Shown: piece by piece, positions 33,783-53,262 of the stretch
How the letters are laid out: the number at the start of each line of letters is the position of its first letter
How positions within the stretch are numbered: position 1 is the stretch's first letter
NCBI RefSeq assembly: GCF_058153355.1
Contig: NZ_CM177019.1
DNA: 64,000 nt
Direction: 5' to 3' (one strand)
The notes under the pieces: generated by a model
What the model was told of the DNA's origin: nothing
Databases searched by the model: none
Seen by the model: only the letters and a program-made list of their open reading frames with translations
Position numbers and translations under genes: made by a program

Positions 33783-33995
33783 GTACGGATTAAAAACAGC
33801 AAACTATTAGCGGGTGCACGGTTTTATCAAAAGATAAATACCGGAAAATTCCGCTTACCTATGCTCACAATCAGTCGACTAAAAATGTTTTTGTGAGCGG
33901 TAGTAAAGTCCTAAAACTTTTACCTGCCGTTAATGTCAACCTTGCGTAATGCACAATTACGTAAACAATTAAAATTATAAATACAGGAGTCCGGC

Positions 33996-35357: not shown

Positions 35358-35405
35358 TTTCCCTATGCCCGATAACATTTTGCTTATCGGGCATTTTTAT
35401 GGCGA

Positions 35406-37070: not shown

Positions 37071-37102
37071 GGTTTCTCTTTCCACTAGACAGATACACTG
37101 GT

Positions 37103-37128
37103 TGTCGGCCTGGTGGTGGAAAACTTTA
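37103..37128 (-). promoter_or_regulatory. Sigma-28 (FliA) class 3 promoter of tsr
   Basis: Minus-strand TAAAGTTT-N11-GCCGACAA matches the TAAAGTTT-N11-GCCGATAA consensus. Confidence 0.7.
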
Positions 37129-37251
37129 TGCTGTGGAAAAGCGTCGGCACTGCTTTTGTTGCAGCAAACTTGCGTTTTTTGTGAGGGTCACACTCTATAG
37201 CGGCAGTTTATGGTACAAAGTATCAATCTTCTTCGAACCAGTGATACTCCC

Positions 37252-38115
37252 ATGGCTTATAGCATCGATATCATCTCCTGTATTACCGAACGGTTTATGG
37301 CGTTAACCGCCACTGAAAAGCGTATCGCACAATTTATTCTTGATGACGTCTCTGCCGCAGTAGAGTTGCCAATTGCTGAGCTGGCACGGTTAACGCAAAC
37401 CAGTCAGGCGTCGGTGACGCGTTTTGCCCGTGCTCTGGGGTGCAAAGATGTCCGCGAGTTGAAAGTCAAACTGGCGCAGTCACTGGCTGTCGGGCAGCGG
37501 TTTATTCTCGATGTACCGGATCTTGACGGTGTTCAGGGGATCTACGAAGCGATTATTAGCGTGCTGGAAACGCATCGTCGTTCGCTGGATATGAATGCCA
37601 TCAGCCAGGCTGTAAGCTGGTTAAGTCAGGCGCGGCAAATTCTTGCGTTAGGAACTGGCGGCGGTTCCACTATCTGTTCACAGGAGATTCAGTACCGTTT
37701 ATTCCGTCTGGGGCTACCGGTGGTCAGTCAGAATGATGCCCTGATGATGAGAATGATGTGCTCGGCAGTGATGCCGCAGGATGTGGTGATTGTGCTGTCG
37801 CTGGGCGGTTATACACCGGAAATCATCGAAAGTGCGGCAATCGCCCGTCAGTATGGCGCGCGTGTTATTGCCATTACGCCAGCACAAACACCGCTGGCAG
37901 AACAGGTAGATCTGGTATTGCCGTTACTGGTTCAGGAGAGTGATTACATTTTTAAGCCCACCCCTTCCCGCTACGCGATGTTAGCCATGGTCGATGTACT
38001 GGCAACAGAACTGGCAATGGCAAATAAAGCGCAGGCGAAAGATCGCCTGCGGCGGATAAAACTGGTGTTAGACAGCCACCGTGGGGGCGCTAACCGCCAG
38101 CCACTTGGCGATTAG
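37252..38115 (+). CDS. RpiR/MurR-family transcriptional regulator (HTH + SIS domain)
   Basis: N-terminal HTH region and C-terminal SIS-like region; start at MAYSID assumed. Confidence 0.7.
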   Translation: MAYSIDIISCITERFMALTATEKRIAQFILDDVSAAVELPIAELARLTQTSQASVTRFARALGCKDVRELKVKLAQSLAVGQRFILDVPDLDGVQGIYEAIISVLETHRRSLDMNAISQAVSWLSQARQILALGTGGGSTICSQEIQYRLFRLGLPVVSQNDALMMRMMCSAVMPQDVVIVLSLGGYTPEIIESAAIARQYGARVIAITPAQTPLAEQVDLVLPLLVQESDYIFKPTPSRYAMLAMVDVLATELAMANKAQAKDRLRRIKLVLDSHRGGANRQPLGD

Positions 38116-38124
38116 CATTGTCGG

Positions 38125-39594
38125 TTATGCTTCTTCAGGTTTGGTGATCACGACACTCTGGTTTTCACGCTCATTGGTGATAATAGCCAAAGCTTCTTCC
38201 CGGCTGACCTGACTTGCTGGCGTTACCAACGTCACCAGTACGCCAGCGACCAGGCTGCCCAGCACTGACGGAATACACGGGTTACCCCAGTAAGCCAGCC
38301 AGTCGGCATTCATCAGCACCACAATTGACATCACCATACCGCTCACTAACGCCGCCAGCGCGCCCTGCCAGTTAAAGCGTAGCCAGAAGCGACCGAGAAT
38401 CGAGCAGATAAACAGCCCGGACATCAGCATCGAAATCATTTTGGTAATGTAGCTGATGATGTCATTAGAGGTCAGAGCAAAGACCAGCGCCAGGCCAATA
38501 ACAAAGGTCAACATCCAGCGTGAGTAAGTAATGGCCTTGTCCTCCGGCGGCATTCTGCCGGTAATCATGGTGTAGACGTCGCGCATCATAATCGCCACCG
38601 CCGCGATGGCATCGGAGCTGGCGGAAGACATGGTGGCTGAAAGCCCGGCAATCAGCACCACCAGCCCAAGAATGGCAGGTAAGAAACTGGTCGCGAACAA
38701 GAAGGCGTAGTTGCTGTTTTCCAGATTTGGGTTCATGGTGAACGCCGCCATGCCGATAATGGCAGGCAGAATCGAGAAGAACAGATACAACACGCCAGTA
38801 ATAACAAATGAACGCCGTACAGAGGGAACGTCTTTTCCCGAGTAAATACGCTGGCGATAAGACGGTGTTGCCAGCACACCTACGCCAATAACCAGTGCCA
38901 GCGAAAGCGCAGGCAGCACGCCCATTTTATCAATCGCAAACAGGCTCATCGCTTTTGGGTCCATCGCCTGCTCAATCGCACTCCAGCCGCCAACGTGAAC
39001 AACGGCAAGAATAGCCATTAATATAAAGCCAAAGAACAGAATTAGGGCCTGAATAGTATCTGTCCACACTACCGCCGAATAACCGCCGATAATAACGTAA
39101 ATCGCAAAGGCCAAAGCGATAATTAATTTTGCTACAGTAAGATCAATACCCGTCGCCCAGGCAAGATACATACTGCCACCTAATATATGCGCTCCCAGCC
39201 AGCCAATAGAGGCAATAAATATCATCAGGCCGACAATATTTTTAATTAAATGGCTGCCGCCAGTATAATAAGATATTTCTTCACTCATGGTCATAAAACG
39301 TAATTTACGTACCGGTGCAAACAGCCACGCCACCAGTAATATACCTACGGCCCCACCGACGCCATAAAGCATTCCGGCCCAGCCATTGCTGTAGCCAAAG
39401 CCCACTGCGCCCATACTGGAACCCGTGCCAACCATCGTGGCAACGGTTGACCCCAGCGTCAGAAACAGCGGCAGCGAACGCCCGCCCAGCAGAAAATCTT
39501 CTCCGCTTTTCTGATTACGAGAAACAAACCAACCAAGCCAAATCATGGCGATGGCATAAATAATAAAGCCGACTAAAAAGATATGACTGTTCAT
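38125..39594 (-). CDS. Sodium:solute symporter family transporter
   Basis: 489-aa polytopic membrane ORF with SSF-like N-terminus. Confidence 0.7.
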   Translation of the reverse strand: MNSHIFLVGFIIYAIAMIWLGWFVSRNQKSGEDFLLGGRSLPLFLTLGSTVATMVGTGSSMGAVGFGYSNGWAGMLYGVGGAVGILLVAWLFAPVRKLRFMTMSEEISYYTGGSHLIKNIVGLMIFIASIGWLGAHILGGSMYLAWATGIDLTVAKLIIALAFAIYVIIGGYSAVVWTDTIQALILFFGFILMAILAVVHVGGWSAIEQAMDPKAMSLFAIDKMGVLPALSLALVIGVGVLATPSYRQRIYSGKDVPSVRRSFVITGVLYLFFSILPAIIGMAAFTMNPNLENSNYAFLFATSFLPAILGLVVLIAGLSATMSSASSDAIAAVAIMMRDVYTMITGRMPPEDKAITYSRWMLTFVIGLALVFALTSNDIISYITKMISMLMSGLFICSILGRFWLRFNWQGALAALVSGMVMSIVVLMNADWLAYWGNPCIPSVLGSLVAGVLVTLVTPASQVSREEALAIITNERENQSVVITKPEEA

Positions 39595-39696
39595 AATTCA
39601 CATCCTGCCAGTAGAGAGAAATTAATGTAAGAGTTCCCGGAGTGCTGAATGTATTCAGCACTCAATTGCGGTCTGTTTTTTTAATTCTTAAATTTA

Positions 39697-40092
39697 TTAG
39701 CGGGTCGCGTTATAACAGGTCACATCGACTTCGACTTTACAATCGACAACCAGATCAGCCACACAACAAATACGTGCAGGCGGATTCTCGCCAAAAAATT
39801 CTCTGAATACTTTATTAAATGACTGGAAATAGCGGGCGTCGGTCAGGATCACTTTCACGTGAACCACATCCGCCAGGCTATAACCGGCTTCAGTCATGAT
39901 GTCGACACAGTTTTGGATCGCCAGTCGTGACTGTTCAACGATTCCGCCTTCTACCACTTCACCGTTTTTCATGGGTGTTTGCCCGGAGACGTACAGCCAG
40001 CCGCCCGCCTCAACCGCCCTGGCAAAAGGCAAATGCTGCCCGCCAGTGCCTGTTCCACCTTCCGTACCGTAACGTTTAATGCTCATATTCAC
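39697..40092 (-). CDS. RidA/YjgF-family enamine/imine deaminase
   Basis: 131-aa ORF; family from recollection of RidA-type sequences. Confidence 0.65.
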   Translation of the reverse strand: MNMSIKRYGTEGGTGTGGQHLPFARAVEAGGWLYVSGQTPMKNGEVVEGGIVEQSRLAIQNCVDIMTEAGYSLADVVHVKVILTDARYFQSFNKVFREFFGENPPARICCVADLVVDCKVEVDVTCYNATR

Positions 40093-40095
40093 TCC

Positions 40096-41547
40096 TTAAT
40101 GTGAGGTCTGCCGGCGCAGGAAGCGTCCCGCACGGCCTGTAATGTGTTTATCGCGACCATAGCTCATAACGCCGTTCACCATCACCGCCTCAATGCCATC
40201 TGCCGGGCGTTTGGGATCAGAAAAGCTGGCAACATCACGAATGGTTTGTGGATCGAACAACACCAGGTCCGCAAAATAGCCAACTTTCACCAGTCCACGC
40301 TGGGGCAGGCGAAAACGGCTGGCAGAAAGCCCGGTCATTTTGTGGATAGCCGTGGTCAGTGGGAATAAGCCTTCATCACGGCAATAGTGGCCCAGCACGC
40401 GAGGGAAGGCGCCCCATAAACGTGGATGCGGCATGGGATCATTGGGCAGGCCGTCAGAGCCAATCATACTGACCGGATAACTCAACACTCGGCGGACGTC
40501 GCGCTCGTCCATGTTGTAATAGATAGCCCCGGCAGGCATTAGCAGCTTCGCGGCCTCCAGCATACTCATCTGCCAGTCGATGGCGATTTGCGCCAGTGTT
40601 TTCCCGGCCTGCTGCGGATGTGTTTGTGACCAGGTGATCACAATATCGAATTCGTCGGTGACTTGTTTGAGATCCAGCGTTGAAGAGCTGGCTGAGTAAG
40701 GGTAGACATCGCAGCCAATTTCCTGGTGTTGACGCATTTGGTCAAAAAAAGCCAATGTTTCTTTTGTCCGCCCCCAGTTTTTCGCCCCGGCGCATTTATG
40801 GTGGGAAACCACGATAGGCACTTTGCCATGACGCCCAATACGAAACGCCTCATCCAGGGCATCGAGAATCGGTTCAAATTCAGAACGCAGATGGGTGGTA
40901 TAAACGCCCTTCTCACCGGCTAATTCTTCCGCCAGCGCCATGACTTCTTCGGTAGTCGCCTGAAATGCCGTTGCATAGGCCAGCCCGGAACTTAACCCCA
41001 GCGCCCCCTGACTCAACGCCAGACGTAAGTCGGCACGCATAGCGGCAATTTCATCCACCGTCGCCGGGCGAAACAGGTCGTCCATATGGTTATTACGCAG
41101 CGCCGTATGACCAATCAGCGTGCCAACGTTCAGTGACGGCCTGGCTGCTTCCACTGCCTGGGCATAGCTTTCAACGGTGGGATAAATAAAGTGCTCTGCT
41201 TCCCCCAACAGATTCATCGGGTCAGGAACTTCACCTTTCATTTTCGCCGACGCCGCACTAATCCCGCAGTTACCGACAATCACCGTAGTGATCCCCTGGC
41301 TGATCTTTGGCAGATATTCCGGGATGCGAATAACGTTGATATCGTCATGGGTATGAACGTCGATAAACCCTGGTGCCAGCACCCGCCCTTCCCCGTCAAT
41401 GACCTGCTGCGCCGTAACGTTAAGCGCAGGGGCAATATCGACAATCCGATCACCTGTTATTGCCACGTCACCGCGAAATTCAGGGCCGCCGCTACCGTCG
41501 ATAACGGTCACATTTTTGATTAACCAGTCAACCTGCATGTTCGTCAC
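40096..41547 (-). CDS. N-acyl-D-amino-acid deacylase (D-aminoacylase, amidohydrolase superfamily)
   Basis: GFIDVHTHDD metal-binding motif near N-terminus; 483 aa. Confidence 0.7.
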   Translation of the reverse strand: MTNMQVDWLIKNVTVIDGSGGPEFRGDVAITGDRIVDIAPALNVTAQQVIDGEGRVLAPGFIDVHTHDDINVIRIPEYLPKISQGITTVIVGNCGISAASAKMKGEVPDPMNLLGEAEHFIYPTVESYAQAVEAARPSLNVGTLIGHTALRNNHMDDLFRPATVDEIAAMRADLRLALSQGALGLSSGLAYATAFQATTEEVMALAEELAGEKGVYTTHLRSEFEPILDALDEAFRIGRHGKVPIVVSHHKCAGAKNWGRTKETLAFFDQMRQHQEIGCDVYPYSASSSTLDLKQVTDEFDIVITWSQTHPQQAGKTLAQIAIDWQMSMLEAAKLLMPAGAIYYNMDERDVRRVLSYPVSMIGSDGLPNDPMPHPRLWGAFPRVLGHYCRDEGLFPLTTAIHKMTGLSASRFRLPQRGLVKVGYFADLVLFDPQTIRDVASFSDPKRPADGIEAVMVNGVMSYGRDKHITGRAGRFLRRQTSH

Positions 41548-41671
41548 TCCATTTCTGCAATGGTGACAAGTTAACCATTTACAAGGACGAAAAACAGTGG
41601 AAAACTACGCAAAACCCAGATGATTTTATGATACTTTTATTCATAAACTATAAGATAAATAAACTAAATAT

Positions 41672-41738: not shown

Positions 41739-42959
41739 ATGAAATACCACTCAGAACCTCTGGTTCCCCATAAATCGGCCCTGATGCAAATGCCCGCAAA
41801 TCTCCTTGCCGAAGATGTCTGTTTACCTGCCGCGATCATTAAAAAGCAGGCCCTGGAGAACAACATTACGTGGATGCAACGCTACGCTGACGCGCGCGGC
41901 GTTTCACTGGCACCGCACGGTAAAACCACCATGACGCCGTGGATTTTTCAGGCGCAGCAGGCGGCAGGCGCCTGGGCAATAGGTGTCGGTAGCGCATGGC
42001 AGGCTGGTGCGGCAATGGCGAGCGGTATTCAGCGTGTGCTGATGGTTAACCAGTTGATCGGCAAGGCAAATATGCAGTTGATTGCCCGGTTGCAACGACA
42101 TTACCCGACGGTCGATTTTATCTGCTGTATCGACAGCATTGAGAACGCCCGCGCTTTGTCTGCCTTTTTTGCCAGTCAGCAACAGACACTGAACGTGATG
42201 ATTGAGCTGGGTGTTCCCGGCGGACGCTGTGGTTGCCGCTCAACGGATGCAGCACTGGCACTGGCTAAACAGGCGGCCCAATTACCAGGGCTACGTCTGC
42301 GCGGGCTTGAGTTATATGAAGGTGTTTTACACGGTGACGATCCACAACCGCAGGTAGAAGCTCTGCTGCGGGATGCCGCACAACTGGCCTGTGATATGGC
42401 AAGTTTGGTTGATGGCGAGTTTATTCTCACCGGAGCAGGCACGGTCTGGTATGACGTGGTGTGCAATATCTGGCTGGCGGCAGAAAAGCCTGATAACTGC
42501 CGCATTGTTATTCGCCCTGGCTGCTACATCACTCACGACACCGGGATCTACGACGCGGCACAACAACAGTTGCTCGCCCGTGATCCTGTGGCCTGTGATC
42601 TGGCAGGCGATCTCACATCTGCGCTGGAACTGGTCGCCATGGTGCAATCGGTGCCGGAAGCTGATCGTGCGGTGGTAAATTTTGGTAAGCGTGATTGCGC
42701 CTTCGACGCCGGACTGCCGCAACCAGTCGCCCACTATCGCAACGGCAAATCACTGGCATTTGATCCACAGGCGATTCGCAGTACAGGTATTATGGATCAG
42801 CACTGCATGTTGCAACTGTCAGCTAATAGCGACGTGCAAGTGGGGGATATTCTGGTGTTTGGCACATCGCATCCGTGCCTGACCTTCGACAAATGGAAAA
42901 CGTTGTTATTGGCTGATGACGACTACAACGTACTGGCGGAATTAGACACTCTCTTCTAA
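41739..42959 (+). CDS. DSD1-family PLP enzyme (D-serine dehydratase-like / D-threonine aldolase-like; alanine-racemase-fold)
   Basis: PHGKT lysine motif near N-terminus; 406 aa. Confidence 0.6.
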   Translation: MKYHSEPLVPHKSALMQMPANLLAEDVCLPAAIIKKQALENNITWMQRYADARGVSLAPHGKTTMTPWIFQAQQAAGAWAIGVGSAWQAGAAMASGIQRVLMVNQLIGKANMQLIARLQRHYPTVDFICCIDSIENARALSAFFASQQQTLNVMIELGVPGGRCGCRSTDAALALAKQAAQLPGLRLRGLELYEGVLHGDDPQPQVEALLRDAAQLACDMASLVDGEFILTGAGTVWYDVVCNIWLAAEKPDNCRIVIRPGCYITHDTGIYDAAQQQLLARDPVACDLAGDLTSALELVAMVQSVPEADRAVVNFGKRDCAFDAGLPQPVAHYRNGKSLAFDPQAIRSTGIMDQHCMLQLSANSDVQVGDILVFGTSHPCLTFDKWKTLLLADDDYNVLAELDTLF

Positions 42960-43349
42960 GAATACCCCTTCGGTTAATTATCGAAGGGGCATTTTTATTG
43001 TGATCTCAATCACATATCCACCCGACGAATAATTCTTGCCCAACCGCTCACCGCCATTCCTGACCGCTTACGTCCCAAATATAACCACTCAGTTATTTAC
43101 CTTACTTTACGCGCGCGTAACTCTGGCAACATCACTGCAGGATAGCGGTCAATTTACCTCCTCAAACGCAACGCAAACCTAGAACGGCTTCGGCCTATGA
43201 TTAACAAATTACTCTATGGATTTTGGTTTGCAGGAAGGCAGCAAGTGAGTGAATCCCCGGGAGCTTACAAAAGTAAGTGACAGGGGTGAACGAACGCAGC
43301 TGCCGCACCTGTAAGCCAAAAGACGACGAGTAAAATGCCAGGTTTTACT

Positions 43350-45500
43350 ATGGATACGAAAAAACTATTCAAGCACATACCCTGGGTGATTCTTGGAATC
43401 ATCGGTGCATTCTGCCTCGCGGTAGTTGCATTACGTCGGGGGGAGCACGTCAGCGCCCTGTGGATCGTGGTCGCCTCTGTGTCGGTGTATCTGGTGGCTT
43501 ATCGCTACTACAGTTTGTACATCGCCCAGAAAGTGATGAAACTCGACCCCACGCGCGCGACGCCTGCGGTTATTAACAATGACGGTCTGAACTATGTTCC
43601 GACCAACCGTTACGTGTTGTTTGGTCACCACTTCGCCGCTATCGCCGGTGCTGGTCCGCTGGTTGGTCCGGTTCTCGCCGCGCAGATGGGCTACCTGCCT
43701 GGCACGCTGTGGTTGCTGGCGGGGGTAGTGCTGGCCGGTGCGGTTCAGGACTTTATGGTGCTGTTTATCTCCTCTCGCCGTAACGGCGCATCTCTCGGTG
43801 AGATGATCAAAGAAGAGATGGGACCAGTACCGGGGACTATCGCGCTGTTTGGCTGTTTCTTAATCATGATCATCATCCTCGCCGTTCTGGCGCTGATTGT
43901 GGTTAAAGCCCTGGCCGAAAGTCCGTGGGGTGTCTTCACCGTTTGCTCAACCGTACCAATTGCGCTGTTTATGGGTATCTACATGCGCTTTATCCGTCCG
44001 GGGCGTGTAGGTGAAGTCTCTGTTATTGGTATCGTGCTGCTGGTTGCCTCTATCTACTTCGGTGGTGTGATTGCTCACGATCCGTACTGGGGTCCGGCAC
44101 TGACCTTTAAAGACACCACCATTACCTTCGCACTGATTGGCTATGCGTTTGTTTCCGCACTGCTGCCGGTGTGGCTGATCCTCGCACCGCGCGACTATCT
44201 GGCAACCTTCCTGAAAATCGGCGTTATCGTCGGCCTGGCGCTGGGTATCGTGGTGCTGAACCCGGAACTGAAAATGCCTGCGATGACCCAGTACATTGAC
44301 GGTACTGGCCCGCTGTGGAAAGGCGCTCTGTTCCCGTTCCTGTTCATCACCATCGCCTGTGGTGCGGTATCTGGCTTCCACGCGCTAATCTCTTCCGGTA
44401 CGACGCCGAAACTGCTGGCTAACGAAACCGACGCGCGTTTCATCGGCTACGGTGCAATGCTGATGGAGTCCTTCGTGGCGATTATGGCGCTGGTTGCTGC
44501 GTCCATCATCGAACCGGGTCTTTACTTCGCGATGAATACTCCGCCTGCGGGCCTTGGCATCACCATGCCTAACCTGCATGAGATGGGTGGCGAGAACGCG
44601 CCGATCATCATGGCACAACTGAAAGACGTTACCGCACACGCGGCAGCGACCGTCAGCTCCTGGGGCTTCGTGATTTCGCCAGAGCAGATCCTGCAAACCG
44701 CGAAAGACATTGGTGAGCCTTCTGTCCTGAACCGTGCAGGTGGTGCGCCGACGCTGGCGGTAGGTATCGCTCACGTGTTCCACAAAGTGCTGCCGATGGC
44801 TGACATGGGCTTCTGGTATCACTTCGGTATTCTGTTCGAAGCCCTGTTCATCCTGACCGCGCTGGATGCGGGTACCCGTTCTGGCCGCTTTATGCTGCAG
44901 GACCTGCTGGGTAACTTCATCCCGTTCCTGAAAAAAACCGACTCTCTGGTTGCTGGTATCATCGGTACTGCGGGCTGTGTGGGTCTGTGGGGCTACCTGC
45001 TGTATCAGGGCGTGGTCGATCCGCTGGGCGGCGTTAAGAGCCTGTGGCCGCTGTTCGGTATCTCCAACCAGATGCTGGCAGCCGTGGCGCTGGTACTGGG
45101 CACCGTTGTGCTGATTAAGATGAAACGCACCCAATACATCTGGGTAACTGTTGTTCCGGCTGTATGGCTGCTTATCTGCACCACCTGGGCGCTGGGCCTG
45201 AAACTGTTCAGCACCAACCCGCAGATGGAAGGCTTCTTCTACATGGCAAGCCAGTACAAAGAGAAGATTGCTAACGGTACTGACCTGACGGCACAGCAGA
45301 TTGCCAACATGAACCACATCGTTGTGAACAACTACACCAACGCAGGCCTGAGTATTCTGTTCCTGATTGTGGTGTACAGCATCATCTTCTACGGTTTCAA
45401 AACCTGGCTGAAGGTGCGTAACAGCGACAAACGTACTGACAAAGAAACACCGTACGTTCCAATCCCGGAAGGCGGCGTGAAGATCTCTTCGCACCACTAA
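43350..45500 (+). CDS. btsT: Pyruvate/H+ symporter BtsT (CstA family)
   Basis: 716 aa from MDTKKLFKH; polytopic; synteny. Confidence 0.85.
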   Translation: MDTKKLFKHIPWVILGIIGAFCLAVVALRRGEHVSALWIVVASVSVYLVAYRYYSLYIAQKVMKLDPTRATPAVINNDGLNYVPTNRYVLFGHHFAAIAGAGPLVGPVLAAQMGYLPGTLWLLAGVVLAGAVQDFMVLFISSRRNGASLGEMIKEEMGPVPGTIALFGCFLIMIIILAVLALIVVKALAESPWGVFTVCSTVPIALFMGIYMRFIRPGRVGEVSVIGIVLLVASIYFGGVIAHDPYWGPALTFKDTTITFALIGYAFVSALLPVWLILAPRDYLATFLKIGVIVGLALGIVVLNPELKMPAMTQYIDGTGPLWKGALFPFLFITIACGAVSGFHALISSGTTPKLLANETDARFIGYGAMLMESFVAIMALVAASIIEPGLYFAMNTPPAGLGITMPNLHEMGGENAPIIMAQLKDVTAHAAATVSSWGFVISPEQILQTAKDIGEPSVLNRAGGAPTLAVGIAHVFHKVLPMADMGFWYHFGILFEALFILTALDAGTRSGRFMLQDLLGNFIPFLKKTDSLVAGIIGTAGCVGLWGYLLYQGVVDPLGGVKSLWPLFGISNQMLAAVALVLGTVVLIKMKRTQYIWVTVVPAVWLLICTTWALGLKLFSTNPQMEGFFYMASQYKEKIANGTDLTAQQIANMNHIVVNNYTNAGLSILFLIVVYSIIFYGFKTWLKVRNSDKRTDKETPYVPIPEGGVKISSHH

Positions 45501-45508
45501 CCGTGTTT

Positions 45509-45536
45509 AGCCCCGCTTCGGCGGGGCTTTGTTCTT
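45509..45536 (+). terminator. Rho-independent terminator after btsT
   Basis: agccccgc-ttcg-gcggggct followed by ttgttctt. Confidence 0.6.
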
Positions 45537-45549
45537 ATCAGAGTGAACT

Positions 45550-45753
45550 ATGTTTGGTAACTTAGGACAGGCAAAAAAATATCTCGGCCAGGCGGCGAAG
45601 ATGTTGATTGGCATTCCAGACTACGACAACTACGTCGAGCATATGAAGACCAACCATCCCGACAAGCCGTACATGAGCTATGAAGAATTCTTCCGCGAAC
45701 GCCAGAACGCGCGCTACGGCGGCGATGGTAAAGGCGGTATGCGCTGTTGTTAA
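45550..45753 (+). CDS. yjiX: Small protein YjiX (DUF466)
   Basis: 67-aa ORF ending ...GGMRCC; synteny. Confidence 0.8.
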
Positions 45754-45763
45754 TGGAGAGAGC

Positions 45764-46720
45764 ATGAACCCGATTGCAGTTACCCTACTCACCGGTTTTT
45801 TAGGCGCAGGCAAAACCACCCTGCTGCGCCATATTCTTAATGAACAGCACGGCTACAAAATTGCCGTGATTGAAAACGAATTCGGCGAAGTCTCCGTTGA
45901 TGATCAACTGATTGGCGACCGCGCCACGCAGATCAAAACGCTGACCAACGGCTGCATCTGTTGTTCGCGCTCCAACGAGCTGGAGGACGCGCTACTCGAC
46001 CTGCTGGATAATCTCGACAAGGGCAATATTCAGTTCGACCGTCTGGTCATTGAATGCACAGGCATGGCCGATCCCGGCCCGATTATTCAGACCTTTTTCT
46101 CCCATGAGATTTTATGCCAGCGTTACCTGCTGGACGGCGTGATTGCGCTGGTGGATGCGGTACATGCCGATGAGCAGATGAACCAGTTCACCATCGCCCA
46201 GTCACAGGTTGGCTACGCCGACCGCATTCTGCTGACCAAAACCGACGTCGCAGGCGAAGCAGAAAAACTGCGTGAACGCCTGGCGCGCATCAACGCCCGC
46301 GCACCGGTCTACACCGTCACCCACGGCGACATCGATCTGGGCCTGCTGTTCAACACCAACGGTTTTATGCTGGAAGAAAACGTCGTCAGCACCAAACCGC
46401 GTTTCCACTTTATCGCGGATAAACAAAACGATATTTCGTCGATTGTGGTGGAACTGGATTACCCGGTAGATATCAGCGAAGTTTCTCGGGTGATGGAAAA
46501 CCTGCTGCTGGAATCGGCGGATAAACTGCTGCGTTACAAAGGGATGCTGTGGATTGACGGCGAACCAAATCGCCTGCTGTTCCAGGGCGTCCAGCGCCTC
46601 TACAGCGCCGACTGGGACCGCCCGTGGGGCGATGAAAAACCGCATAGCACAATGGTGTTTATCGGGATTCAGCTGCCGGAGGAAGAGATTCGGGCTGCGT
46701 TTGCGGGGTTGAGGAAGTAA
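45764..46720 (+). CDS. yjiA: CobW/P47K-family GTPase YjiA
   Basis: 318 aa from MNPIAVTLLTGFLGAGKTT (Walker A); GCICCS motif. Confidence 0.85.
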   Translation: MNPIAVTLLTGFLGAGKTTLLRHILNEQHGYKIAVIENEFGEVSVDDQLIGDRATQIKTLTNGCICCSRSNELEDALLDLLDNLDKGNIQFDRLVIECTGMADPGPIIQTFFSHEILCQRYLLDGVIALVDAVHADEQMNQFTIAQSQVGYADRILLTKTDVAGEAEKLRERLARINARAPVYTVTHGDIDLGLLFNTNGFMLEENVVSTKPRFHFIADKQNDISSIVVELDYPVDISEVSRVMENLLLESADKLLRYKGMLWIDGEPNRLLFQGVQRLYSADWDRPWGDEKPHSTMVFIGIQLPEEEIRAAFAGLRK

Positions 46721-46788
46721 GTTCGGGAAAGATCAACTTTTTGAGAGTTCCACCGCAATATTATTACGAGTGGAACTCTTTAGATATG

Positions 46789-48463
46789 TCAGACCAACCA
46801 AAGCTTCTTCAATTGCGTTTTCATTTTTTCATGTCTCATTTTCAGTTCAGCCAATCCCCATTCTGAAGAATTACAAACATCTTTTGTTAAATCAAAAGAG
46901 CTTTTACTATTAAGTTTCTCATAAATAGATTTCTTTTTGATAAAATCATAGTGTTGTGCTTCAGAATTTTTGGAACCACTTATGAGTGTTAAATTACCTA
47001 TTTTATGCAGCCAGTAGACATGCTCTTGAGGTTGGAATCTATTAATCCAGTATTCATTAACTAATGCTTGAGGAAGAATATGCTCAATTGTGATTCTCCC
47101 CGTATAGGTTTTAATCACGCTCTCATCTTGTTGCTCCATATCTAAGCGAAGCAAAATTGCTTTTATTAAGTTCACTTGATTCGGACGAGGCTCATATAAA
47201 TCTTCATCCAGTGCAGCTATAAAACCTGAATTATCTGCATGTTGGTTTATCTGATTTATCACAGAATCAAAAGGCATATCATTATTTATTGCTACCAGAG
47301 CTGAATAACAAACCATTTCTCTTTGGCTTTTAATTTGTTTTTTTAACCACCCATGCATATATACCTTCTCAAAGGCGGTAATAAATTGAGAAAAATCATC
47401 TAAATTAAAATCTTCTGTACGAGCCATTCGATTCATGAATGCCATAACCGGAGGAATCCACTCATCTACCCCTAAATTACTTAGCGATGCTATTTTTCGT
47501 CGTATTGAAGGGTGTTCAAAATCATTCTCTAAAATCTTAGTATAATTTTTTGCAGAATTAACCAACATCAGTGACATAGCAATAGCATCTCCATCAAATT
47601 GCTGCTGGAGATTTTCAATAAAAGCTTCAAAACCTTTTTGTAACACCCTGTCACGATCTTTTTTCTCGGAAAGCTTATGAAGAGTAAGAAATTTATCAAG
47701 CCGTCTCACTCCAACCATATCTTCAATTTGCGACCATGCTGATTCTATTTGCTCTAATTTTTTATTATGTGTAGAAGCTGATTCAAACAGTGCATTTTTT
47801 AAAAGAACTGCATTACTTAAAGGTAAACCTCGACTATTTAATACATTAAAGAGTCTAAATGATGATGCGAAATCATCTGTTTGCACAAATACGATATATA
47901 CATTTTGCAAAATATATTTAGCAAGCAACTTCAACTCATCAACAGATAACCGCAACAAATAATCTCTAATTGTTTCAGCGTTGCTAATGAATACTAAATC
48001 AGTATCCGATGGCTTTTCAGGCTTATAATCTTTAGAATCCTGCAGTATATAATATTTATAAAGATCATACTCTTTTTTTCTAACAATTAGTCTTGGTTCA
48101 TCTGTTTCATCAGAATAAACATCAATAGGTAGAACTCTTTTTTTGCAAATCATCTTTTATCCCCTGAATCGGGATGATTTTTTTTAGCTCGGAGACAATA
48201 ATACTTAACGTTGTAAGACGTTGTTGCCCATCTACAACTTCATACTGATTTTGCCCTTTATTGATACAAATCATACTCCCAATAAAATATTCATTCTCTT
48301 CTGATTGAGAGCTTTTATAAATGTCATCAATGAGTTGCTCTGCATTATCTACCGTCCAACTGTAAGGACGCTGATAAGAAGGAATAATAAACTTTTTGTT
48401 TTCAGTAAGGATATCCTGCACCTTACATTCTTTAGCTTCCATTTCATATACCCAATCAAACAA
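46789..48463 (-). pseudogene. GmrSD-like type IV restriction endonuclease (DUF262 + DUF1524), interrupted by a frameshift in an A7 tract (plus-strand T7 at 48137-48143)
   Basis: Upstream 113-aa ORF carries DUF262 motifs (YQRPYSW, DGQQRLTT); downstream 454-aa ORF carries the DUF1524 motif (IEHILPQ...IGNLTLIS); the frames join if the A7 run were A6. Confidence 0.7.
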
Positions 48464-48599
48464 TCAACAATAACATTATCTTTCTTGCCCGAAAGAAACG
48501 CAACTATAAGATTTTTATATATTTTGTTAGAGATATTAGTAGCAAAAGGCCACGATAAATTTCTCTCCCCTTCCCCATACGGGAAGGGGAAATACCCCC

Positions 48600-48764
48600 T
48601 CACTCCACATCCTCCCTGCGTAACCCAATATCCCTCAACCGTTCATCACTCATCTGCTGTAACACGCGTCGGGTCTGCATTTGCCGCCGCCAACGCCTCA
48701 CCGCCTGCCAGAGTTGCACCAGGCCGATAAACGGCGCTTTAGCTCTGTTTTCGTGAAATACCAT
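48600..48764 (-). CDS. yjiS: Small protein YjiS (DUF1127), 54 aa
   Basis: Manual translation MVFHENRAKAPFIGLVQLWQAVRRWRRQMQTRRVLQQMSDERLRDIGLRREDVE; not in ORF track because short. Confidence 0.6.
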   Translation of the reverse strand: MVFHENRAKAPFIGLVQLWQAVRRWRRQMQTRRVLQQMSDERLRDIGLRREDVE

Positions 48765-48940
48765 CTGCTGCCTCCTCATCTTTCAGAGGCTTCATCATCC
48801 GCCTTCTGGCAGTTCACAATACAGATGCAAATATTAGTTTTATTTAACATACAGACAGGTTAAAACAACATCTGCATCCGGTTTTTTAGCCTCATCTGTA
48901 CCGGTTTTTCTCTCTGTATGGTCCAAATAAGGAGTACAGC

Positions 48941-50353
48941 ATGACGCGTTATCAACATCTGGCGACTCTGCTTGCCGAACGGATTGAGCAAGGGCTGTAT
49001 CGTCACGGGGAGAAATTGCCGTCGGTGCGCAGCTTAAGTCAGGAGCACGGCGTCAGTATCAGCACCGTGCAGCAGGCGTATCAGACGCTGGAGACGATGA
49101 AGCTCATCACTCCGCAGCCGCGTTCGGGTTATTTTGTCGCACAACGTAAAGCCCAGCCGCCAGTACCGCCGATGACGCGTCCGGTGCAGCGCCCGGTGGA
49201 AATTACCCAGTGGGATCAGGTGCTGGATATGCTGGAGGCGCATAGCGACAGTTCCATTGTTCCGTTAAGCAAAAGCACGCCGGATGTCGAAACGCCCAGC
49301 TTGAAACCGCTGTGGCGGGAGCTAAGCCGGGTGGTGCAGCATAATCTGCAAACCGTTCTCGGTTATGACTTGTTAGCCGGTCAGCGAGTATTGCGAGAGC
49401 AGATTGCCCGCCTGATGCTCGACAGCGGCTCGGTAGTCACCGCCGATGACATCATTATTACCAGCGGCTGCCATAACTCGATGTCGCTGGCGTTAATGGC
49501 GGTGTGTAAACCGGGCGATATTGTCGCGGTCGAATCCCCCTGTTATTACGGTTCGATGCAGATGCTGCGCGGCATGGGCGTGAAAGTGATTGAAATCCCA
49601 ACCGATCCAGAAACAGGCATCAGCGTTGAAGCGCTGGAACTGGCGCTGGAACAGTGGCCAATTAAAGGCATCATTCTGGTGCCAAACTGTAATAATCCGC
49701 TGGGATTTATTATGCCGGACGCGCGCAAACGGGCCGTTCTCTCTCTCGCTCAGCGTCATGATATTGTGATTTTTGAAGATGATGTCTATGGCGAACTGGC
49801 AACGGAGTATCCGCGCCCGCGGACCATTCATTCCTGGGATATCGACGGGCGAGTGCTGCTGTGCAGTTCGTTCAGTAAAAGCATTGCACCAGGCCTGCGC
49901 GTGGGTTGGGTCGCACCGGGGCGTTATCACGATAAACTGCTGCATATGAAATACGCCATCAGCAGCTTTAATGTGCCGTCCACGCAAATGGCGGCGGCAA
50001 CGTTTGTGCTGGAAGGTCACTATCATCGCCATATCCGGCGGATGCGGCAGAATTATCAGCGCAATTTGGCGCTTTATACCTGCTGGATACGGGAATATTT
50101 TCCCTGCGAAATCTGTATTACGCGCCCGAAAGGCGGATTTTTACTGTGGATAGAATTGCCTGAACAGGTCGATATGGTCTGCGTTGCGCGACAGCTGTAC
50201 CGCATGAAAATCCAGGTGGCGGCAGGCTCGATTTTCTCGGCTTCCGGCAAATACCGTAATTGTCTACGCATCAACTGCGCTTTACCGCTCAGCGAAACCT
50301 ATCGCGAAGCACTGAAGCAAATTGGCGAGGCCGTGTATCGGGCAATGGAATGA
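48941..50353 (+). CDS. yjiR: MocR/GntR-family regulator with aminotransferase domain
   Basis: 470-aa ORF, N-terminal GntR HTH plus aminotransferase-like domain. Confidence 0.85.
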   Translation: MTRYQHLATLLAERIEQGLYRHGEKLPSVRSLSQEHGVSISTVQQAYQTLETMKLITPQPRSGYFVAQRKAQPPVPPMTRPVQRPVEITQWDQVLDMLEAHSDSSIVPLSKSTPDVETPSLKPLWRELSRVVQHNLQTVLGYDLLAGQRVLREQIARLMLDSGSVVTADDIIITSGCHNSMSLALMAVCKPGDIVAVESPCYYGSMQMLRGMGVKVIEIPTDPETGISVEALELALEQWPIKGIILVPNCNNPLGFIMPDARKRAVLSLAQRHDIVIFEDDVYGELATEYPRPRTIHSWDIDGRVLLCSSFSKSIAPGLRVGWVAPGRYHDKLLHMKYAISSFNVPSTQMAAATFVLEGHYHRHIRRMRQNYQRNLALYTCWIREYFPCEICITRPKGGFLLWIELPEQVDMVCVARQLYRMKIQVAAGSIFSASGKYRNCLRINCALPLSETYREALKQIGEAVYRAME

Positions 50354-50439
50354 ATTCGAAATAGTGGCGAAGCGCCTGATTTCCTCTCACGAATCGCGTG
50401 TGACTCGTTTTATCTTTGCTGGGTCATCGCCACGTTCCA

Positions 50440-50570
50440 GCCTGAATTAGGCAAAGTGCGCTTTGTTCATGCCGGATGCCATGTGAACGCCTTACCAGGT
50501 CTACAAAATCTTTAAAGTTCAATATATTTAATGGGTTATGTAGACCTGATAAGTGTAGCGCATCAGGCTG
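50440..50570. repeat. REP/BIME palindromic units between yjiR and rpnD
   Basis: gccggatgccatgtgaacgccttaccaggtctac and gtagacctgataagtgtagcgcatcaggc. Confidence 0.45.
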
Positions 50571-50595
50571 CTTTGCGTTTGTCATCCGTCTCTGA

Positions 50596-51552
50596 TTAGT
50601 ACTCGATCCATGGATCACGCTTGCTTTCAGGCAAGGGCTGATCTAATGCCTGCATTTGCTCTGCCGAAAGTCCGGTATATCGTTGTATCCATTCAGGATC
50701 GGCCCCATTCTGCAACAACAATCGGAGGAGGCTCCGTTCCCCTTCTACTTTCCCTTCTTTCCTCCCCCTCTCCCTTCCCAACAGCCATCCATCATTATGA
50801 ATTCGCTCTGCAATTGTCATTATTCGCTCCCTGTGGTGTGGCATTCGCCTGGTAAGTTCGCTGATAAACGCCTTAAAACGCGCTTCATCGCCAGTCAGTA
50901 AAATGTAATTTAACAGCGCAGTTATCTGGCTGTCATTAGCGCACCCTGTAACCAGTAATACTGCCAGTTGATCAATAAGCCCCATTAGATCGCGCTGGCG
51001 AATATGCTTTTGGATCAACTCCAACAGGGCGACTCTGCGATGCTGCACAATCTCGTCATCCGGCACGATAGTGATATCCACCAGCGGGAACGCGGCGTTA
51101 TAAAGCTTCCGTGCGGTAGTCGGGTCGGCAAATTCGTCCAGCCAGCACAAAGACCAGGGATAAGGACTACGGCTACCGTGATAAAACAGCATCGGGATGA
51201 CCAGCGGTAGCGGTCGGCGTTTATCATGTTCGATATGGCGCTGCATCACCGCCATGGAATAGCGCATCAGGCGAAAAGCCATGTGAATATCCTCACGGCT
51301 CTGATGTTCAATCACCACATAGATATAGCCATCTCCTTTACGGGTCTTTACCGACCACAGAATATCGGAATGTAGCGCCCGTAATTTTTCATCGACAAAG
51401 CTGGCGGATTCCAGTTTTAAGCTATCGAGATCGCACAGTTCACGTAAATCTATTGGTAAGTGGATCTCCATAAAATCCCGCGCGGTGTCAGGGTGGGTGA
51501 GAAAGGATTTAAATAATGCGTCATGCGGCGTACTGGTCGTGAAGTTTGTCAT
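50596..51552 (-). CDS. rpnD: Rpn-family recombination-promoting nuclease (PD-(D/E)XK, YhgA-like), apparently intact 318 aa
   Basis: N-terminal [11 protein letters not shown]...DILWSV motifs typical of Rpn/transposase_31 proteins. Confidence 0.7.
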
Positions 51553-52029
51553 GGCGATCCGTCACCTGTAGATAAGATGGCCCGACTTTAGCGACTAACA
51601 AAACCATTCTCACCCGGCTATTTTCCGTTCCCCGAGGCGCTTTCTAGGCTATTTTTGTTCCTCTGCAAACGATACATTTTTCCGGAAACAGGCTCGCGTT
51701 TTACATTTCCTGTACCCGGCAGATATTCCCCTTTCCACCGCGCTCTTTTGATTAACCGCAAATTTTAATTACACTTAAGGTGTATATTTTCTATGCAACC
51801 CATCAATTCAAGAGGTGTAATGTGCTGATGACTATTTGTAATCGTTATACATTCTGACCCGAAGTCAGAAAGTATTTCACTGTCTGTGTGTTCACAGGCA
51901 GTGTGGTTGATTACATGAAATTCAGTACATTTGCAGTCTCGTTGCCCTTCTCACCTGCCTTTCGTCATTACCGACGGTATTGAATTTCGTTTTCCCCGTT
52001 GGGGTTCTCCGGACAAGGAGTTGTTTGTT

Positions 52030-53262
52030 ATGCCACGTTTTTTTGCCCGCCATGCCGCTACGCTGTTTTTCCCGATGGCGTTGATTTTGTATGACTTTGC
52101 CGCGTACCTGTCGACGGATCTGATCCAGCCTGGGATCATTAATGTGGTCCGTGATTTTAATGCCGATGTCAGTCTGGCCCCGGCTGCCGTCAGTCTCTAT
52201 CTCGCTGGAGGCATGGCATTGCAGTGGCTGCTGGGGCCGCTTTCCGACAGGATTGGCCGCAGGCCGGTGCTGATTACCGGAGCGCTAATATTTACCCTTG
52301 CCTGCGCTGCGACAATGTTCACCACGTCTATGACACAGTTTCTTATCGCGCGTGCAATTCAGGGCACCAGTATCTGTTTTATTGCCACCGTTGGTTATGT
52401 CACGGTGCAGGAAGCGTTCGGGCAGACAAAAGGGATCAAGTTGATGGCGATTATCACCTCCATCGTACTGATTGCGCCAATTATCGGCCCGCTTTCCGGC
52501 GCAGCTCTGATGCACTTTGTGCACTGGAAAGTCCTTTTTGCCATCATTGCGATTATGGGTTTTATCTCATTTGTTGGCTTACTGCTGGCGATGCCAGAGA
52601 CAGTGAAGCGCGGCGCGGTTCCGTTTAGCGCCAAAAGCGTCTTGCGCGATTTTCGTAATGTCTTTTGCAATCGGCTGTTCCTCTTTGGCGCAGCAACCAT
52701 CTCTTTAAGCTATATCCCGATGATGAGTTGGGTGGCTGTCTCGCCGGTGATCCTTATCGATGCAGGCGGCTTAACAACTTCGCAGTTCGCCTGGACACAG
52801 GTTCCGGTGTTCGGCGCGGTGATTGTTGCGAATGCCATCGTGGCGCGTTTCGTTAAAGATCCGACCGAACCGCGGTTTATCTGGCGTGCCGTACCCATTC
52901 AACTGGTCGGCCTCTCGCTGTTGATTATCGGCAATCTGCTGTCGCCGCACGTCTGGCTGTGGTCGGTGCTGGGCACCAGTCTGTATGCTTTCGGGATTGG
53001 TTTGATTTTCCCGACCTTATTCCGCTTTACGCTGTTTTCCAATAACTTACCGAAAGGGACCGTCTCCGCATCGCTAAATATGGTGATCCTGATGGTGATG
53101 TCGGTCTCGGTCGAAATCGGCCGCTGGCTGTGGTTTAACGGCGGTCGCTTGCCGTTTCATCTGTTAGCCGTTGTGGCGGGCGTTATCGTCGTTTTCACCC
53201 TGGCGGGATTGCTCAATCGCGTGCGCCAGCATCAGGCAGCCGAGCTAGTGGAGGAGCAGTGA
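52030..53262 (+). CDS. mdtM: MFS multidrug efflux transporter MdtM
   Basis: 410 aa from MPRFFARH; 12-TM MFS. Confidence 0.8.

What the first reader, a model, noticed from the sequence alone, without database searches (positions are those of the whole stretch)
46789..48463. GmrSD-like type IV restriction gene, frameshifted in an A7 tract, at the immigration-control hotspot
Between yjiA and yjiS, where K-12 as I recall carries mrr-hsdRMS-symE-mcrBC, this window has a single DUF262+DUF1524 (GmrSD-type) gene. Its two halves are in different frames and would join if the minus-strand A7 run (plus T7 at 48137-48143) were A6. That is either a phase-variable or inactivated modification-dependent restriction enzyme, or a homopolymer sequencing error.
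Basis: partly seen in the sequence, partly recalled or inferred. Interest (0 to 1): 0.7.

Follow-up and report, generated by a model that had tools for sequence, protein, structure and literature searches.

The report
Freshly broken GmrSD restriction gene
This is a well-known type of anti-phage DNA-cutting gene, in E. coli's classic restriction-gene hotspot, that was recently knocked out in this one strain by an extra A in a run of A's plus a change at an invariant residue; it is an ordinary pseudogene, not a switch.

Summary
Deleting one A gives a 550-aa protein with GmrSD_N (1.7e-39) and GmrSD_C (2.1e-27). It is 99.5% identical to WP_000387532.1/Q6TMI4, the intact gene of E. coli C, ATCC 8739 and O104:H4.

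The tract is A6 in the other 574 complete E. coli genomes that carry it (bar one assembly with inflated homopolymers), in 15 metagenome contigs, and in two near-identical sister assemblies with the same compact locus. The window also carries D212V, at a residue invariant in 115/115 homologues.

On the window's branch, 3 of 4 private mutations in 21 kb fall within 390 nt of this gene (p≈0.002). A public-run assembly (SRR31441161) reproduces the sequence exactly.

Verdict: this is a recent, strain-specific, probably irreversible inactivation of a known GmrSD-family type IV restriction gene. Phase variation is not supported and sequencing error is unlikely. The same gene is frameshifted at a neighbouring A8 run in 319/574 genomes (mostly O157:H7/O55:H7), so decay is recurrent. 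Interest is low to moderate.

The parts
46789..48442 (-). Whole GmrSD-family pseudogene (1654 nt; the intact allele is 1653 nt and 550 aa)
   Evidence: It is 99.4% identical in DNA to intact E. coli alleles.
48122..48442 (-). ORF1: 106 aa from ATG 48442 (113 aa from TTG 48463). It holds the N-terminal part of GmrSD_N, including DGQQR at 48218-48232, and ends ...QKKSSTY*
48138..48144 (-). A7 run (T7 on the + strand), the site of the +1 insertion. It is A6 in all intact alleles.
46789..48153 (-). ORF2: 454 aa (MICKKRVLPID...). It holds the rest of GmrSD_N, the helical linker, and GmrSD_C with IEHILPQ at 47068-47088. Its ATG lies 7 nt after an AGGGG Shine-Dalgarno-like sequence.
47806..47808 (-). 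Codon 212, GAT→GTT (D212V; changed base 47807). The residue is invariant in 115/115 homologues. The change is private to this strain and also destroys a GATC site.
47755..47757 (-). Codon 229, TCA→TTA (S229L; changed base 47756). It is private to this strain, at a variable position.
47998..48000 (-). Codon 148, GAG→GAT (E148D). It is lineage-specific and shared with sister strains that have the intact gene.
48178..48185 (-). A8 run ('tract 1'), intact here. It is A7 (-1 frameshift) in 319 of 574 complete E. coli genomes, mostly O157:H7/O55:H7.
48073..48079 (-). A7 run ('tract 3'), intact here. It is A6 (-1 frameshift) in isolate AF57 (NZ_OZ546943.1).
48443..48599 (-). Upstream region up to yjiS. 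Positions 48443-48532 are shared with all other copies of the gene and include a weak sigma-70-like site at 48503-48530. Positions 48533-48555 are a 23-nt junction unique to this lineage. Positions 48556-48599 are the yjiS-proximal flank with a hairpin.
   Evidence: E. coli C has about 750 bp with an hsdR remnant at the junction.

Best explanation
The feature is a recently inactivated allele of a single-chain GmrSD-family (DUF262/ParB-like NTPase plus DUF1524/His-Me-finger nuclease) type IV restriction gene. It is the only occupant of the yjiA-yjiS immigration-control region in this E. coli lineage.

In its intact form the 550-aa protein would be expected to act like other GmrSD-type enzymes: NTP-stimulated cleavage of incoming modified phage or plasmid DNA. 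That function is inferred from family membership and was not tested here.

In this strain replication slippage added one A to an A6 run (A6→A7, 48138-48144). This terminates the protein after residue 101, inside the NTPase domain. The same branch also acquired D212V at an invariant residue, and S229L. The gene is therefore most likely a dead pseudogene. Reverting the tract alone would probably not restore function.
For: Shown:
- Domains and motifs: GmrSD_N and GmrSD_C are both present. DGQQR, IEHILPQ, GNLxL and N492 are intact.
- Defence-model hits: PADLOC Orf5/PDLC02690, full length, E=2.9e-140; HEC-06, about 1e-62 to 1e-66.
- Identity: the repaired ORF differs from WP_000387532.1 at 3 residues.
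- The intact allele has A6.
- No A7 among the 574 complete E. coli genomes holding this segment. The only outlier, SCU-485, has inflated homopolymers throughout.
- 15/15 metagenome contigs have A6.
- Sister assemblies GCA_015332025.1 and GCA_043012465.1 have the same compact yjiS-gene-yjiA locus and a called 550-aa product. They carry A6, D212 and S229, and otherwise differ from the window by 1-2 SNPs over 17-28 kb.
- D212 is invariant in 115/115 full-length homologues of 26-59% identity. An acidic residue sits at this position even in distant PDB relatives.
- Intact alleles are under purifying selection: 21 synonymous against 4 nonsynonymous polymorphic sites among 11 alleles. The window's branch has 0 synonymous, 2 nonsynonymous and 1 frameshift.
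- The Logan assembly of SRR31441161 is 100% identical to the window over 22611-41569 and 42941-56353, including A7.
- Of 53 homopolymers of 6 nt or more in 36 kb compared with the sisters, only this one differs. No other 1-nt indel in a homopolymer falls inside a CDS when compared with EC42405.

Inferred: loss of function from truncation within the ParB/Srx-fold domain and from D212V; the biochemical activity of the intact enzyme.
Against: - No reads were inspected. SRR31441161 may be the very data the window was assembled from, so agreement shows consistency between assemblers, not independent sequencing.
- ORF2 has its own ATG with an SD-like AGGGG 7 nt upstream, so two polypeptides could be made. 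A mutationally split two-chain GmrS/GmrD from CT596 retained activity (PMC4437046).
- +1 ribosomal or RNA-polymerase slippage on A7 would restore the exact wild-type sequence (QKRVLP), so trace full-length protein is possible.
- The effect of D212V is inferred from conservation only.
- No experiment exists for this 550-aa subfamily. E. coli C, which has it intact, is classically called 'restrictionless' (PMC12707154).
Confidence: 0.8

Rival explanations
1. Homopolymer sequencing or assembly error: the gene is really intact (A6) in the organism.
For: A single-base length change in a homopolymer is the classic artefact. The 454-aa product is on record from only one sample. One other private change lies in a Dam site (47807) and one in a Dcm site (51645), which are motifs where nanopore consensus errors concentrate (the nanopore point is from my own knowledge).
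Against: A k-mer-based assembly of run SRR31441161 is 100% identical over about 32 kb, including A7. Only 1 of 53 homopolymers of 6 nt or more, 1 of 152 GATC sites and 1 of 75 CCWGG sites differ from the sister assemblies, so there is no systematic error pattern. Two missense changes sit within 390 nt of the tract, and random errors would not cluster like that. C→T at the inner C of CCAGG and +1 in an A run are also natural mutational hotspots.
Confidence: 0.07
2. Phase-variable (contingency) restriction gene: the A tract slips back and forth to switch the enzyme ON and OFF.
For: Three different A runs (A8, A6, A7) within the first 380 nt carry independent frameshifts in different strains. The A8→A7 change occurs on at least 3 haplotype backgrounds. 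Phase-variable restriction-modification genes are known in other bacteria (own knowledge).
Against: The tract in question is A6 in every other copy: 573 good genomes, 15 metagenome contigs, and the contigs carrying the sister allele that were read. The O157:H7/O55:H7 OFF state is inherited stably across hundreds of genomes. Runs of 6-8 A are far shorter than typical contingency tracts (own knowledge). With the protein sequence and codon usage held fixed, the number of A runs of 6 or more is not enriched: 9 observed against 7.0±1.5 expected, P=0.15. The OFF allele here also carries D212V at an invariant residue, so ON would probably not be recovered.
Confidence: 0.04
3. The split gene still works, either as a two-chain enzyme (106-aa DGQQR fragment plus 454-aa remainder) or through low-level +1 ribosomal or transcriptional slippage on A7.
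For: ORF2 has an ATG preceded by AGGGG at 7 nt. A +1 slip of tRNA-Lys on the run would read AGA-GTT and recreate QKRVLP exactly (sequence). A mutationally split CT596 GmrS/GmrD retained activity (PMC4437046). ECOR17 uses a GmrS plus GmrSD pair (PMC12373910).
Against: The break lies inside the ParB/Srx-fold NTPase domain, separating DGQQR from the second conserved block (FxxxN...D212...K215). D212V remains in any product. No orthologue conserves a frameshift at this site, since all others are in frame. The in-phase A_AAA_AAG heptamer promotes -1 slippage, not +1, and leads to a stop after 19 codons. A7 is below the run length at which efficient transcriptional slippage is known (own knowledge).
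Confidence: 0.05
4. The cause was selection, not neutral decay. Loss of function was favoured in this strain, for example because the nuclease conflicted with a newly acquired mobile element or DNA modification. This would explain the multiple hits in one gene. It is compatible with the best explanation and concerns why the inactivation happened.
For: 3 of 4 window-private mutations in 21 kb fall in this 1.65-kb gene, within 390 nt, and all three alter the protein (binomial p=0.0018). Lineage-specific SNPs at 47998, 48022 and 48130 are retained between the three mutations, so they are de novo changes and not an imported recombination tract. There is a precedent: loss-of-function mutations in the GmrSD-like PFLU4242 compensate plasmid cost in P. 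fluorescens (PMC11637435). The gene is repeatedly inactivated in E. coli by frameshifts, IS3/IS1/IS5 insertions and 5' deletions.
Against: One loss-of-function hit would suffice, so extra hits are not predicted by simple selection. A single error-prone repair patch could equally give a cluster. The one candidate trigger tested, the prophage N6/N4 DNA methyltransferase at 637-1689, is also present, identical, in the sister strain with the intact gene. The numbers are small.
Confidence: 0.2

Closest known systems
WP_000387532.1 / UniProt Q6TMI4, 'DUF262 domain-containing protein' of E. coli C, ATCC 8739, O104:H4, LF82 and others (the gene left in the 'empty' ICR of E. coli C; Sibley & Raleigh 2004, cited in PMC12707154)
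   Same: Same gene at the same position next to yjiA. DNA identity is 99.4%, and the repaired protein differs at 3 of 550 residues.
   Different: The window allele has A7 instead of A6, plus D212V and S229L. Its locus is even more reduced: E. coli C keeps about 750 bp with an hsdR remnant between yjiS and the gene, whereas the window has a 23-nt junction.
Split allele of E. coli O157:H7/O55:H7 (WP_001304005.1, 94 aa, plus WP_001304004.1, 452 aa)
   Same: Same gene, also broken by a 1-nt change in a poly-A run in the 5' part of the DUF262 domain, and annotated as two CDS.
   Different: It is a different tract (A8→A7 at window-equivalent 48178-48185, a -1 change) and an independent event. It is fixed in a large clade (319/574 genomes) and sits next to an EcoAI-family hsdR.
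GmrSD of E. coli CT596 / Eco94GmrSD / UTI89 enzyme (prototype type IV enzymes against glc-5hmC and 5hmC DNA)
   Same: DUF262 plus DUF1524 single-chain architecture, with the DGQQR and (D/E)HxxP...N...N motifs (PMC4437046, PMC4619093).
   Different: Those enzymes are about 604-629 aa, prophage-encoded and only distantly related. No PDB or characterised relative is closer than E=2e-12. The substrate of the 550-aa subfamily is unknown.
HEC-06 and BrxU (GmrSD-like defences embedded in Hma, BREX or type I RM loci)
   Same: Full-length hits to the PADLOC HEC-06 models (E about 1e-62 to 1e-66). HEC-06 needs its DGQQR and EH motifs for phage defence (bioRxiv 10.1101/2024.01.29.577857). In most E. coli this gene sits beside a type I hsdRMS.
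   Different: It is a better match to another PADLOC model (Orf5/PDLC02690, 2.9e-140), whose origin I could not trace. In the window no partner system is left.
PFLU4242 of Pseudomonas fluorescens SBW25 (DUF262/DUF1524)
   Same: A chromosomal GmrSD-like gene whose loss-of-function mutations arise readily (PMC11637435).
   Different: There the selective cause (megaplasmid conflict) is demonstrated. Here it is only conjecture.

Membership tests
GmrSD family (type IV restriction, DUF262+DUF1524) | N-terminal GmrSD_N/DUF262 (ParB/Srx-like) domain | tested here: met
   PF03235 at residues 8-219 of the repaired protein, E=1.7e-39. Also hit on each fragment separately.
GmrSD family (type IV restriction, DUF262+DUF1524) | (I/V)(I/V)DGQQRLTT motif | tested here: met
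   VVDGQQRLTTL is present at 48218-48232, in ORF1. It is invariant in 115 homologues. Motif definition from PMC4619093.
GmrSD family (type IV restriction, DUF262+DUF1524) | C-terminal GmrSD_C/DUF1524 His-Me-finger nuclease with (D/E)HxxPQ, LGNLxLLxxxN and NxxFxxKK | tested here: met
   PF07510 at 412-540, E=2.1e-27. IEHILPQ, IGNLTLISGSKN and HYDFIKKK are present. E453, H454, N483, N492 and K503 match the invariant columns.
GmrSD family (type IV restriction, DUF262+DUF1524) | One uninterrupted polypeptide carrying both domains | tested here: not met
   A +1 frameshift at the A7 tract gives 106-aa and 454-aa ORFs. This is a pseudogene of a family member, not a functional member.
GmrSD family (type IV restriction, DUF262+DUF1524) | Invariant acidic residue of the second conserved GmrS block (N202-x-R-G-x-x-L-x-x-x-D212-x-x-K215) | tested here: not met
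   V212 in the window. D in 115/115 homologues and in all other E. coli alleles.
GmrSD family (type IV restriction, DUF262+DUF1524) | NTP-stimulated cleavage of modified (5hmC, glc-5hmC or 5mC) DNA; phage restriction | not testable with these tools
   No experimental report for this 550-aa subfamily was found.
E. coli immigration control region cassette | Variable defence genes between the framework genes yjiA-yjiX-btsT and yjiS-yjiR-rpnD | tested here: met
   Gene order in the window matches the annotated framework in EC42405, E. coli C and ATCC 8739. The framework is described in PMC4498929 and PMC12707154, which reports GmrSD in 12% of ICRs.
Phase-variable (contingency) locus | Repeat tract whose length varies among close relatives and populations and reversibly switches expression | tested here: not met
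   The tract is A6 in all other copies. There is no enrichment of A runs beyond what the amino-acid sequence and codon usage give. A second lesion, D212V, is present. Within-culture heterogeneity was not testable.
Programmed frameshift or transcriptional-slippage gene | Frameshift site conserved in orthologues, with the shift restoring the functional frame | tested here: not met
   Orthologues are in frame. The in-phase A_AAA_AAG heptamer would shift -1 into a frame that stops after 19 codons, whereas +1 is needed.

The most novel reading that the evidence does not exclude
The triple hit (frameshift, invariant-residue missense and a second missense within 390 nt, on a branch with only one other mutation in 21 kb) may record selection to silence a resident type IV nuclease after this clone acquired a conflicting mobile element or DNA modification. 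This would be a natural E. coli counterpart of the PFLU4242 compensatory mutations. More broadly, the poly-A runs at the 5' end of this gene would act as the routine break-points by which E. coli lineages (O157:H7 included) shed this defence.
Probability: 0.15. Interest if true: 0.5.

Novelty: already known. Interest (0 to 1): 0.27.

Why it matters
For annotation, the two ORFs should be called one pseudogene. This strain's immigration-control region then encodes no functional restriction system at all, so it may be an unusually permissive recipient for modified DNA and phage.

For biology, the case adds a datable example of defence-gene loss, because sister isolates still have the intact gene. 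It also shows that this particular GmrSD gene is lost again and again at short A runs, including in the whole O157:H7/O55:H7 clade. It does not reveal a new mechanism.

Tried and rejected
1. An exact-pattern scan of genome contigs (species representatives) for the tract with any run length found nothing, so the source genome could not be named.
2. An exact look-up of the window's 454-aa, 106-aa and repaired 550-aa proteins in the 15-billion-protein collection was negative. The look-up of encoding contigs later found the 454-aa product in SRR31441161, so the two indexes differ.
3. NCBIfam gave no family.
4. I could not trace the origin of the name of the best PADLOC model, 'Orf5'.
5. Sibley & Raleigh 2004 (the E. 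coli C ICR paper) is not held. I rely on its citation in PMC12707154 and on the UniProt ID Q6TMI4 attached to the cluster.
6. I tested whether the prophage DNA methyltransferase at 637-1689 triggered inactivation. This was rejected, because the identical gene is in sister GCA_015332025.1, which keeps the intact GmrSD. The second prophage methylase (5740-6393) was not tested.
7. I tested whether a recombination import explains the three clustered changes. This was rejected, because lineage-specific SNPs lying between them are retained.
8. I tested whether A runs are enriched as in contingency genes. The codon shuffle suggested enrichment (P=0.0025), but this disappears when the protein sequence is held fixed (P=0.15). 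The runs come from Lys-rich sequence and AAA codon preference.
9. A look-up with the conserved symporter protein was uninformative, because it occurs on too many contigs.
10. SCU-485, the only genome with a longer tract 2, has inflated homopolymers throughout and was discarded as an assembly artefact.
11. Structure prediction was not run, because the domain and motif evidence was already decisive.

Full report
**1. What is in the sequence**

On the minus strand between yjiA (45764-46720, +) and yjiS (48600-48764, -) there are two overlapping ORFs. ORF1 runs 48442 (ATG, MEAKECK; or the upstream TTG at 48463) to 48122. ORF2 runs 48153 to 46789 and is 454 aa. They are in frames 0 and +1 and overlap by 32 nt around an A7 run at 48138-48144. 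Deleting one A gives one 550-aa ORF. The gene has 33% G+C, against 50-58% in the flanks.

**2. Identity**

Pfam finds GmrSD_N (PF03235, ex-DUF262) at residues 8-219, E=1.7e-39, and GmrSD_C (PF07510, ex-DUF1524) at 412-540, E=2.1e-27. The two separate products carry the same families in precomputed annotations.

PADLOC gives full-length hits to Orf5/PDLC02690 (2.9e-140) and to the HEC-06 models (about 1e-62 to 1e-66). It gives N-terminal hits to SspE. NCBIfam has no model. The closest solved structures are distant DUF262 proteins and SspE, with E=2e-12 or weaker.

The family motifs described by Machnicka et al. (PMC4619093) are all present: VVDGQQRLTTL, F198xxxN202, IEHILPQ, IGNLTLISGSKN and HYDFIKKK. 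The frameshift falls after residue about 101. That is inside the DUF262 domain, between DGQQR and its second conserved block, and not between the two domains.

**3. The intact counterpart and the locus**

The gene occurs in 619 of 5,426 complete E. coli genomes, 573 of them nearly full length, always on the chromosome.

In E. coli C, ATCC 8739, O104:H4, LF82 and others it is one 550-aa CDS, WP_000387532.1 (UniProt Q6TMI4), annotated 'DUF262 domain-containing protein'. The repaired window protein differs from it by E148D, D212V and S229L.

In most strains the gene lies beside an EcoAI-family type I hsdR. E. coli C keeps only an hsdR remnant between it and yjiS. In the window that remnant is gone too. 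Homology to other copies starts 90 nt upstream of the ATG (48532), and 23 unique nucleotides join it to the yjiS flank.

The yjiA/yjiS framework and the presence of GmrSD homologues in about 12% of enterobacterial ICRs are described in PMC4498929 and PMC12707154. The biochemically characterised Eco94GmrSD (629 aa) is prophage-encoded and is a different, distant protein (PMC4437046). I found no experimental work on the 550-aa protein.

**4. Is the tract variable?**

A 78-nt query across tract 2 matched 574 genomes. The best identity was 97.5%. A copy with A7 would have scored 98.7% and ranked first, so none has A7. The single outlier, SCU-485, carries A14 and A8 and has inflated homopolymers throughout the gene, so it is an assembly artefact. 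Fifteen metagenome contigs found with a run-length-tolerant pattern all have A6.

Other A runs are hit elsewhere:
- The A8 run at 48178-48185 is A7 in 319 of 574 genomes. These are mostly O157:H7 and O55:H7, but also unrelated strains on at least three haplotype backgrounds.
- The A7 run at 48073-48079 is A6 in isolate AF57.
- IS3, IS1 and IS5 insertions and 5' truncations also occur.

So this gene is lost repeatedly, and short A runs are the usual break-points.

With the protein and codon usage held fixed, the count of A runs of 6 or more is unremarkable: 9 observed against 7.0±1.5 expected, P=0.15. The runs reflect Lys-rich sequence and AAA preference in an AT-rich gene. They do not reflect selection for mutability.

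**5. The nearest relatives**

The window's flanks are only 98.3-98.6% identical to the best complete genome. Exact-protein look-ups, however, found near-identical draft assemblies.

GCA_015332025.1 has the same compact btsT-yjiX-yjiA-gene-yjiS-yjiR arrangement with an intact 550-aa gene. Over 28.3 kb (window 1-3689 and 31739-56353) it differs from the window at five positions:
- 47756;
- 47807;
- the extra A;
- 51645;
- 56195.

GCA_043012465.1 agrees with it at the first four over 47197-64000. Its gene is called as a 550-aa product, although only the 5' 1.2 kb lies in the fetched locus.

The window's branch therefore carries four private changes in 42941-64000. Three of them are in the 1.65-kb gene, within 390 nt, and all three alter the protein (binomial p=0.0018). 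Lineage-specific SNPs at 47998, 48022 and 48130 lie between them and are retained. They are therefore de novo changes, not an imported tract. The sister intact allele was read on 16 contigs. The 454-aa product was found in one sample only, SRR31441161.

**6. Second lesion**

In an alignment of 115 full-length homologues (26-59% identity, taken from a search of 1.84 billion representatives), D212 is invariant and the window has V. Distant PDB relatives have E at this position. Positions 148 and 229 are variable. All other invariant columns are unchanged.

Intact E. coli alleles show 21 synonymous against 4 nonsynonymous polymorphic sites. The gene is therefore under purifying selection where it is intact. 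That contrasts with 0 synonymous, 2 nonsynonymous and 1 frameshift on the window's branch.

**7. Artefact?**

The Logan contig from SRR31441161 equals the window exactly over 22611-41569 and 42941-56353, A7 included. It may come from the same isolate or even the same reads, so this excludes an assembler or polishing artefact rather than a chemistry artefact.

The pattern is not that of a noisy assembly:
- Of 53 homopolymers of 6 nt or more, 152 GATC sites and 75 CCWGG sites in the 36 kb compared, one of each differs from the sisters.
- Against EC42405 (about 55 kb compared), no other homopolymer-length indel falls inside a CDS. The remaining indels are intergenic, one in-frame 27-nt repeat, or one base at the yjjA start.

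The fourth private change is C→T at the inner C of a CCAGG site, a classic 5-methylcytosine deamination hotspot (own knowledge). I put sequencing error at about 7%.

**8. Could it still function?**

ORF2 has an SD-like AGGGG 7 nt before its ATG. A +1 slip on the run would recreate QKRVLP exactly. However, the insertion creates A_AAA_AAG in phase with ORF1, which favours -1 slippage into a frame that stops after 19 codons. No orthologue conserves a shift here, and D212V persists in any product. I consider residual function unlikely, at about 5%.

**9. Why three hits?**

I see two possible explanations:
- selection against the nuclease; the precedent is loss-of-function in the GmrSD-like PFLU4242, which compensates plasmid cost (PMC11637435);
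- a single error-prone repair patch.

The one trigger I could test failed. The prophage N6/N4 methyltransferase at 637-1689 is present, identical, in the sister with the intact gene. The question remains open.

**10. Verdict**

The best-supported reading is a recent, strain-specific and probably irreversible pseudogenisation of a known ICR GmrSD-family gene. It is not a phase-variable switch and probably not an error. The gene family, the hotspot and frameshifted alleles of this very gene are already in public annotation, so novelty is low. The datable triple hit and the recurrent poly-A break-points are the only mildly interesting points.

Noticed in passing
window 19732-22038 (-), ORF 19813-21555: This is a group II intron. 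Rfam gives Intron_gpII (domain V/VI) at 19732-19808 and group-II-D1D4-7 at 21891-22038. A 580-aa ORF, presumably the reverse transcriptase/maturase, lies between them. The intron is inserted just upstream of naRNA4 (22096-22178) and the three tRNA-Leu genes (22318-22636). Strain MMC-J-0020 has no insert between rsmC and these tRNAs.
   Followed up: partly
window 1-16618: This is part of a lambdoid prophage integrated next to yjjG, with its integrase at 15395-16618. It carries two DNA methyltransferase genes: a 350-aa N6_N4_Mtase at 637-1689 and a 217-aa phage N6-adenine methylase at 5740-6393. It also carries the STnc100 sRNA at 10506-10728. The 350-aa methylase is identical in sister GCA_015332025.1.
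   Followed up: partly
window 58685-58711: There is a 27-nt in-frame expansion of an AACATCTGC tandem repeat in the pentapeptide-repeat protein gene (57198-59315), relative to strain EC42405. This exact 705-aa allele is on record in only one other assembly.
   Followed up: no
window 51645: This is the only window-private change outside the GmrSD gene: C→T at the inner C of a CCAGG (Dcm) site, in the rpnD-mdtM intergenic region. That is the classic 5-methylcytosine deamination hotspot.
   Followed up: no
window 28536 and 59548: There are two single-base indels relative to EC42405. One lies at the very start of yjjA; the product is called as 167 aa here against 164 aa. The other is an A7-versus-A6 run 27 nt upstream of the SdiA-regulated-domain gene.
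   Followed up: no
L028 3469-5563 and L033 (other E. coli ICRs sharing the window's exact YjiR): A different, two-gene GmrS-like/GmrD-like pair sits next to yjiS in some strains: a 274-aa GmrSD_N protein and a 387-aa GmrSD_C+DUF5655 protein. The same hotspot therefore hosts at least two unrelated GmrSD-type cassettes.
   Followed up: no
L019 (NZ_CP053245.1, E. coli SCU-485): This RefSeq 'complete genome' has inflated homopolymers throughout the gene, for example A14 for A8 and A8 for A6, plus many other +1 to +6 runs. This creates a spurious 'internal stop' pseudogene annotation.
   Followed up: yes
L003 (O157:H7 strain TR01) versus L002 (typical O157:H7): One strain labelled O157:H7 carries the intact common allele (A8) without the two O157-specific SNPs. 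That suggests allele replacement by recombination, or an atypical lineage, rather than reversion of the frameshift.
   Followed up: partly
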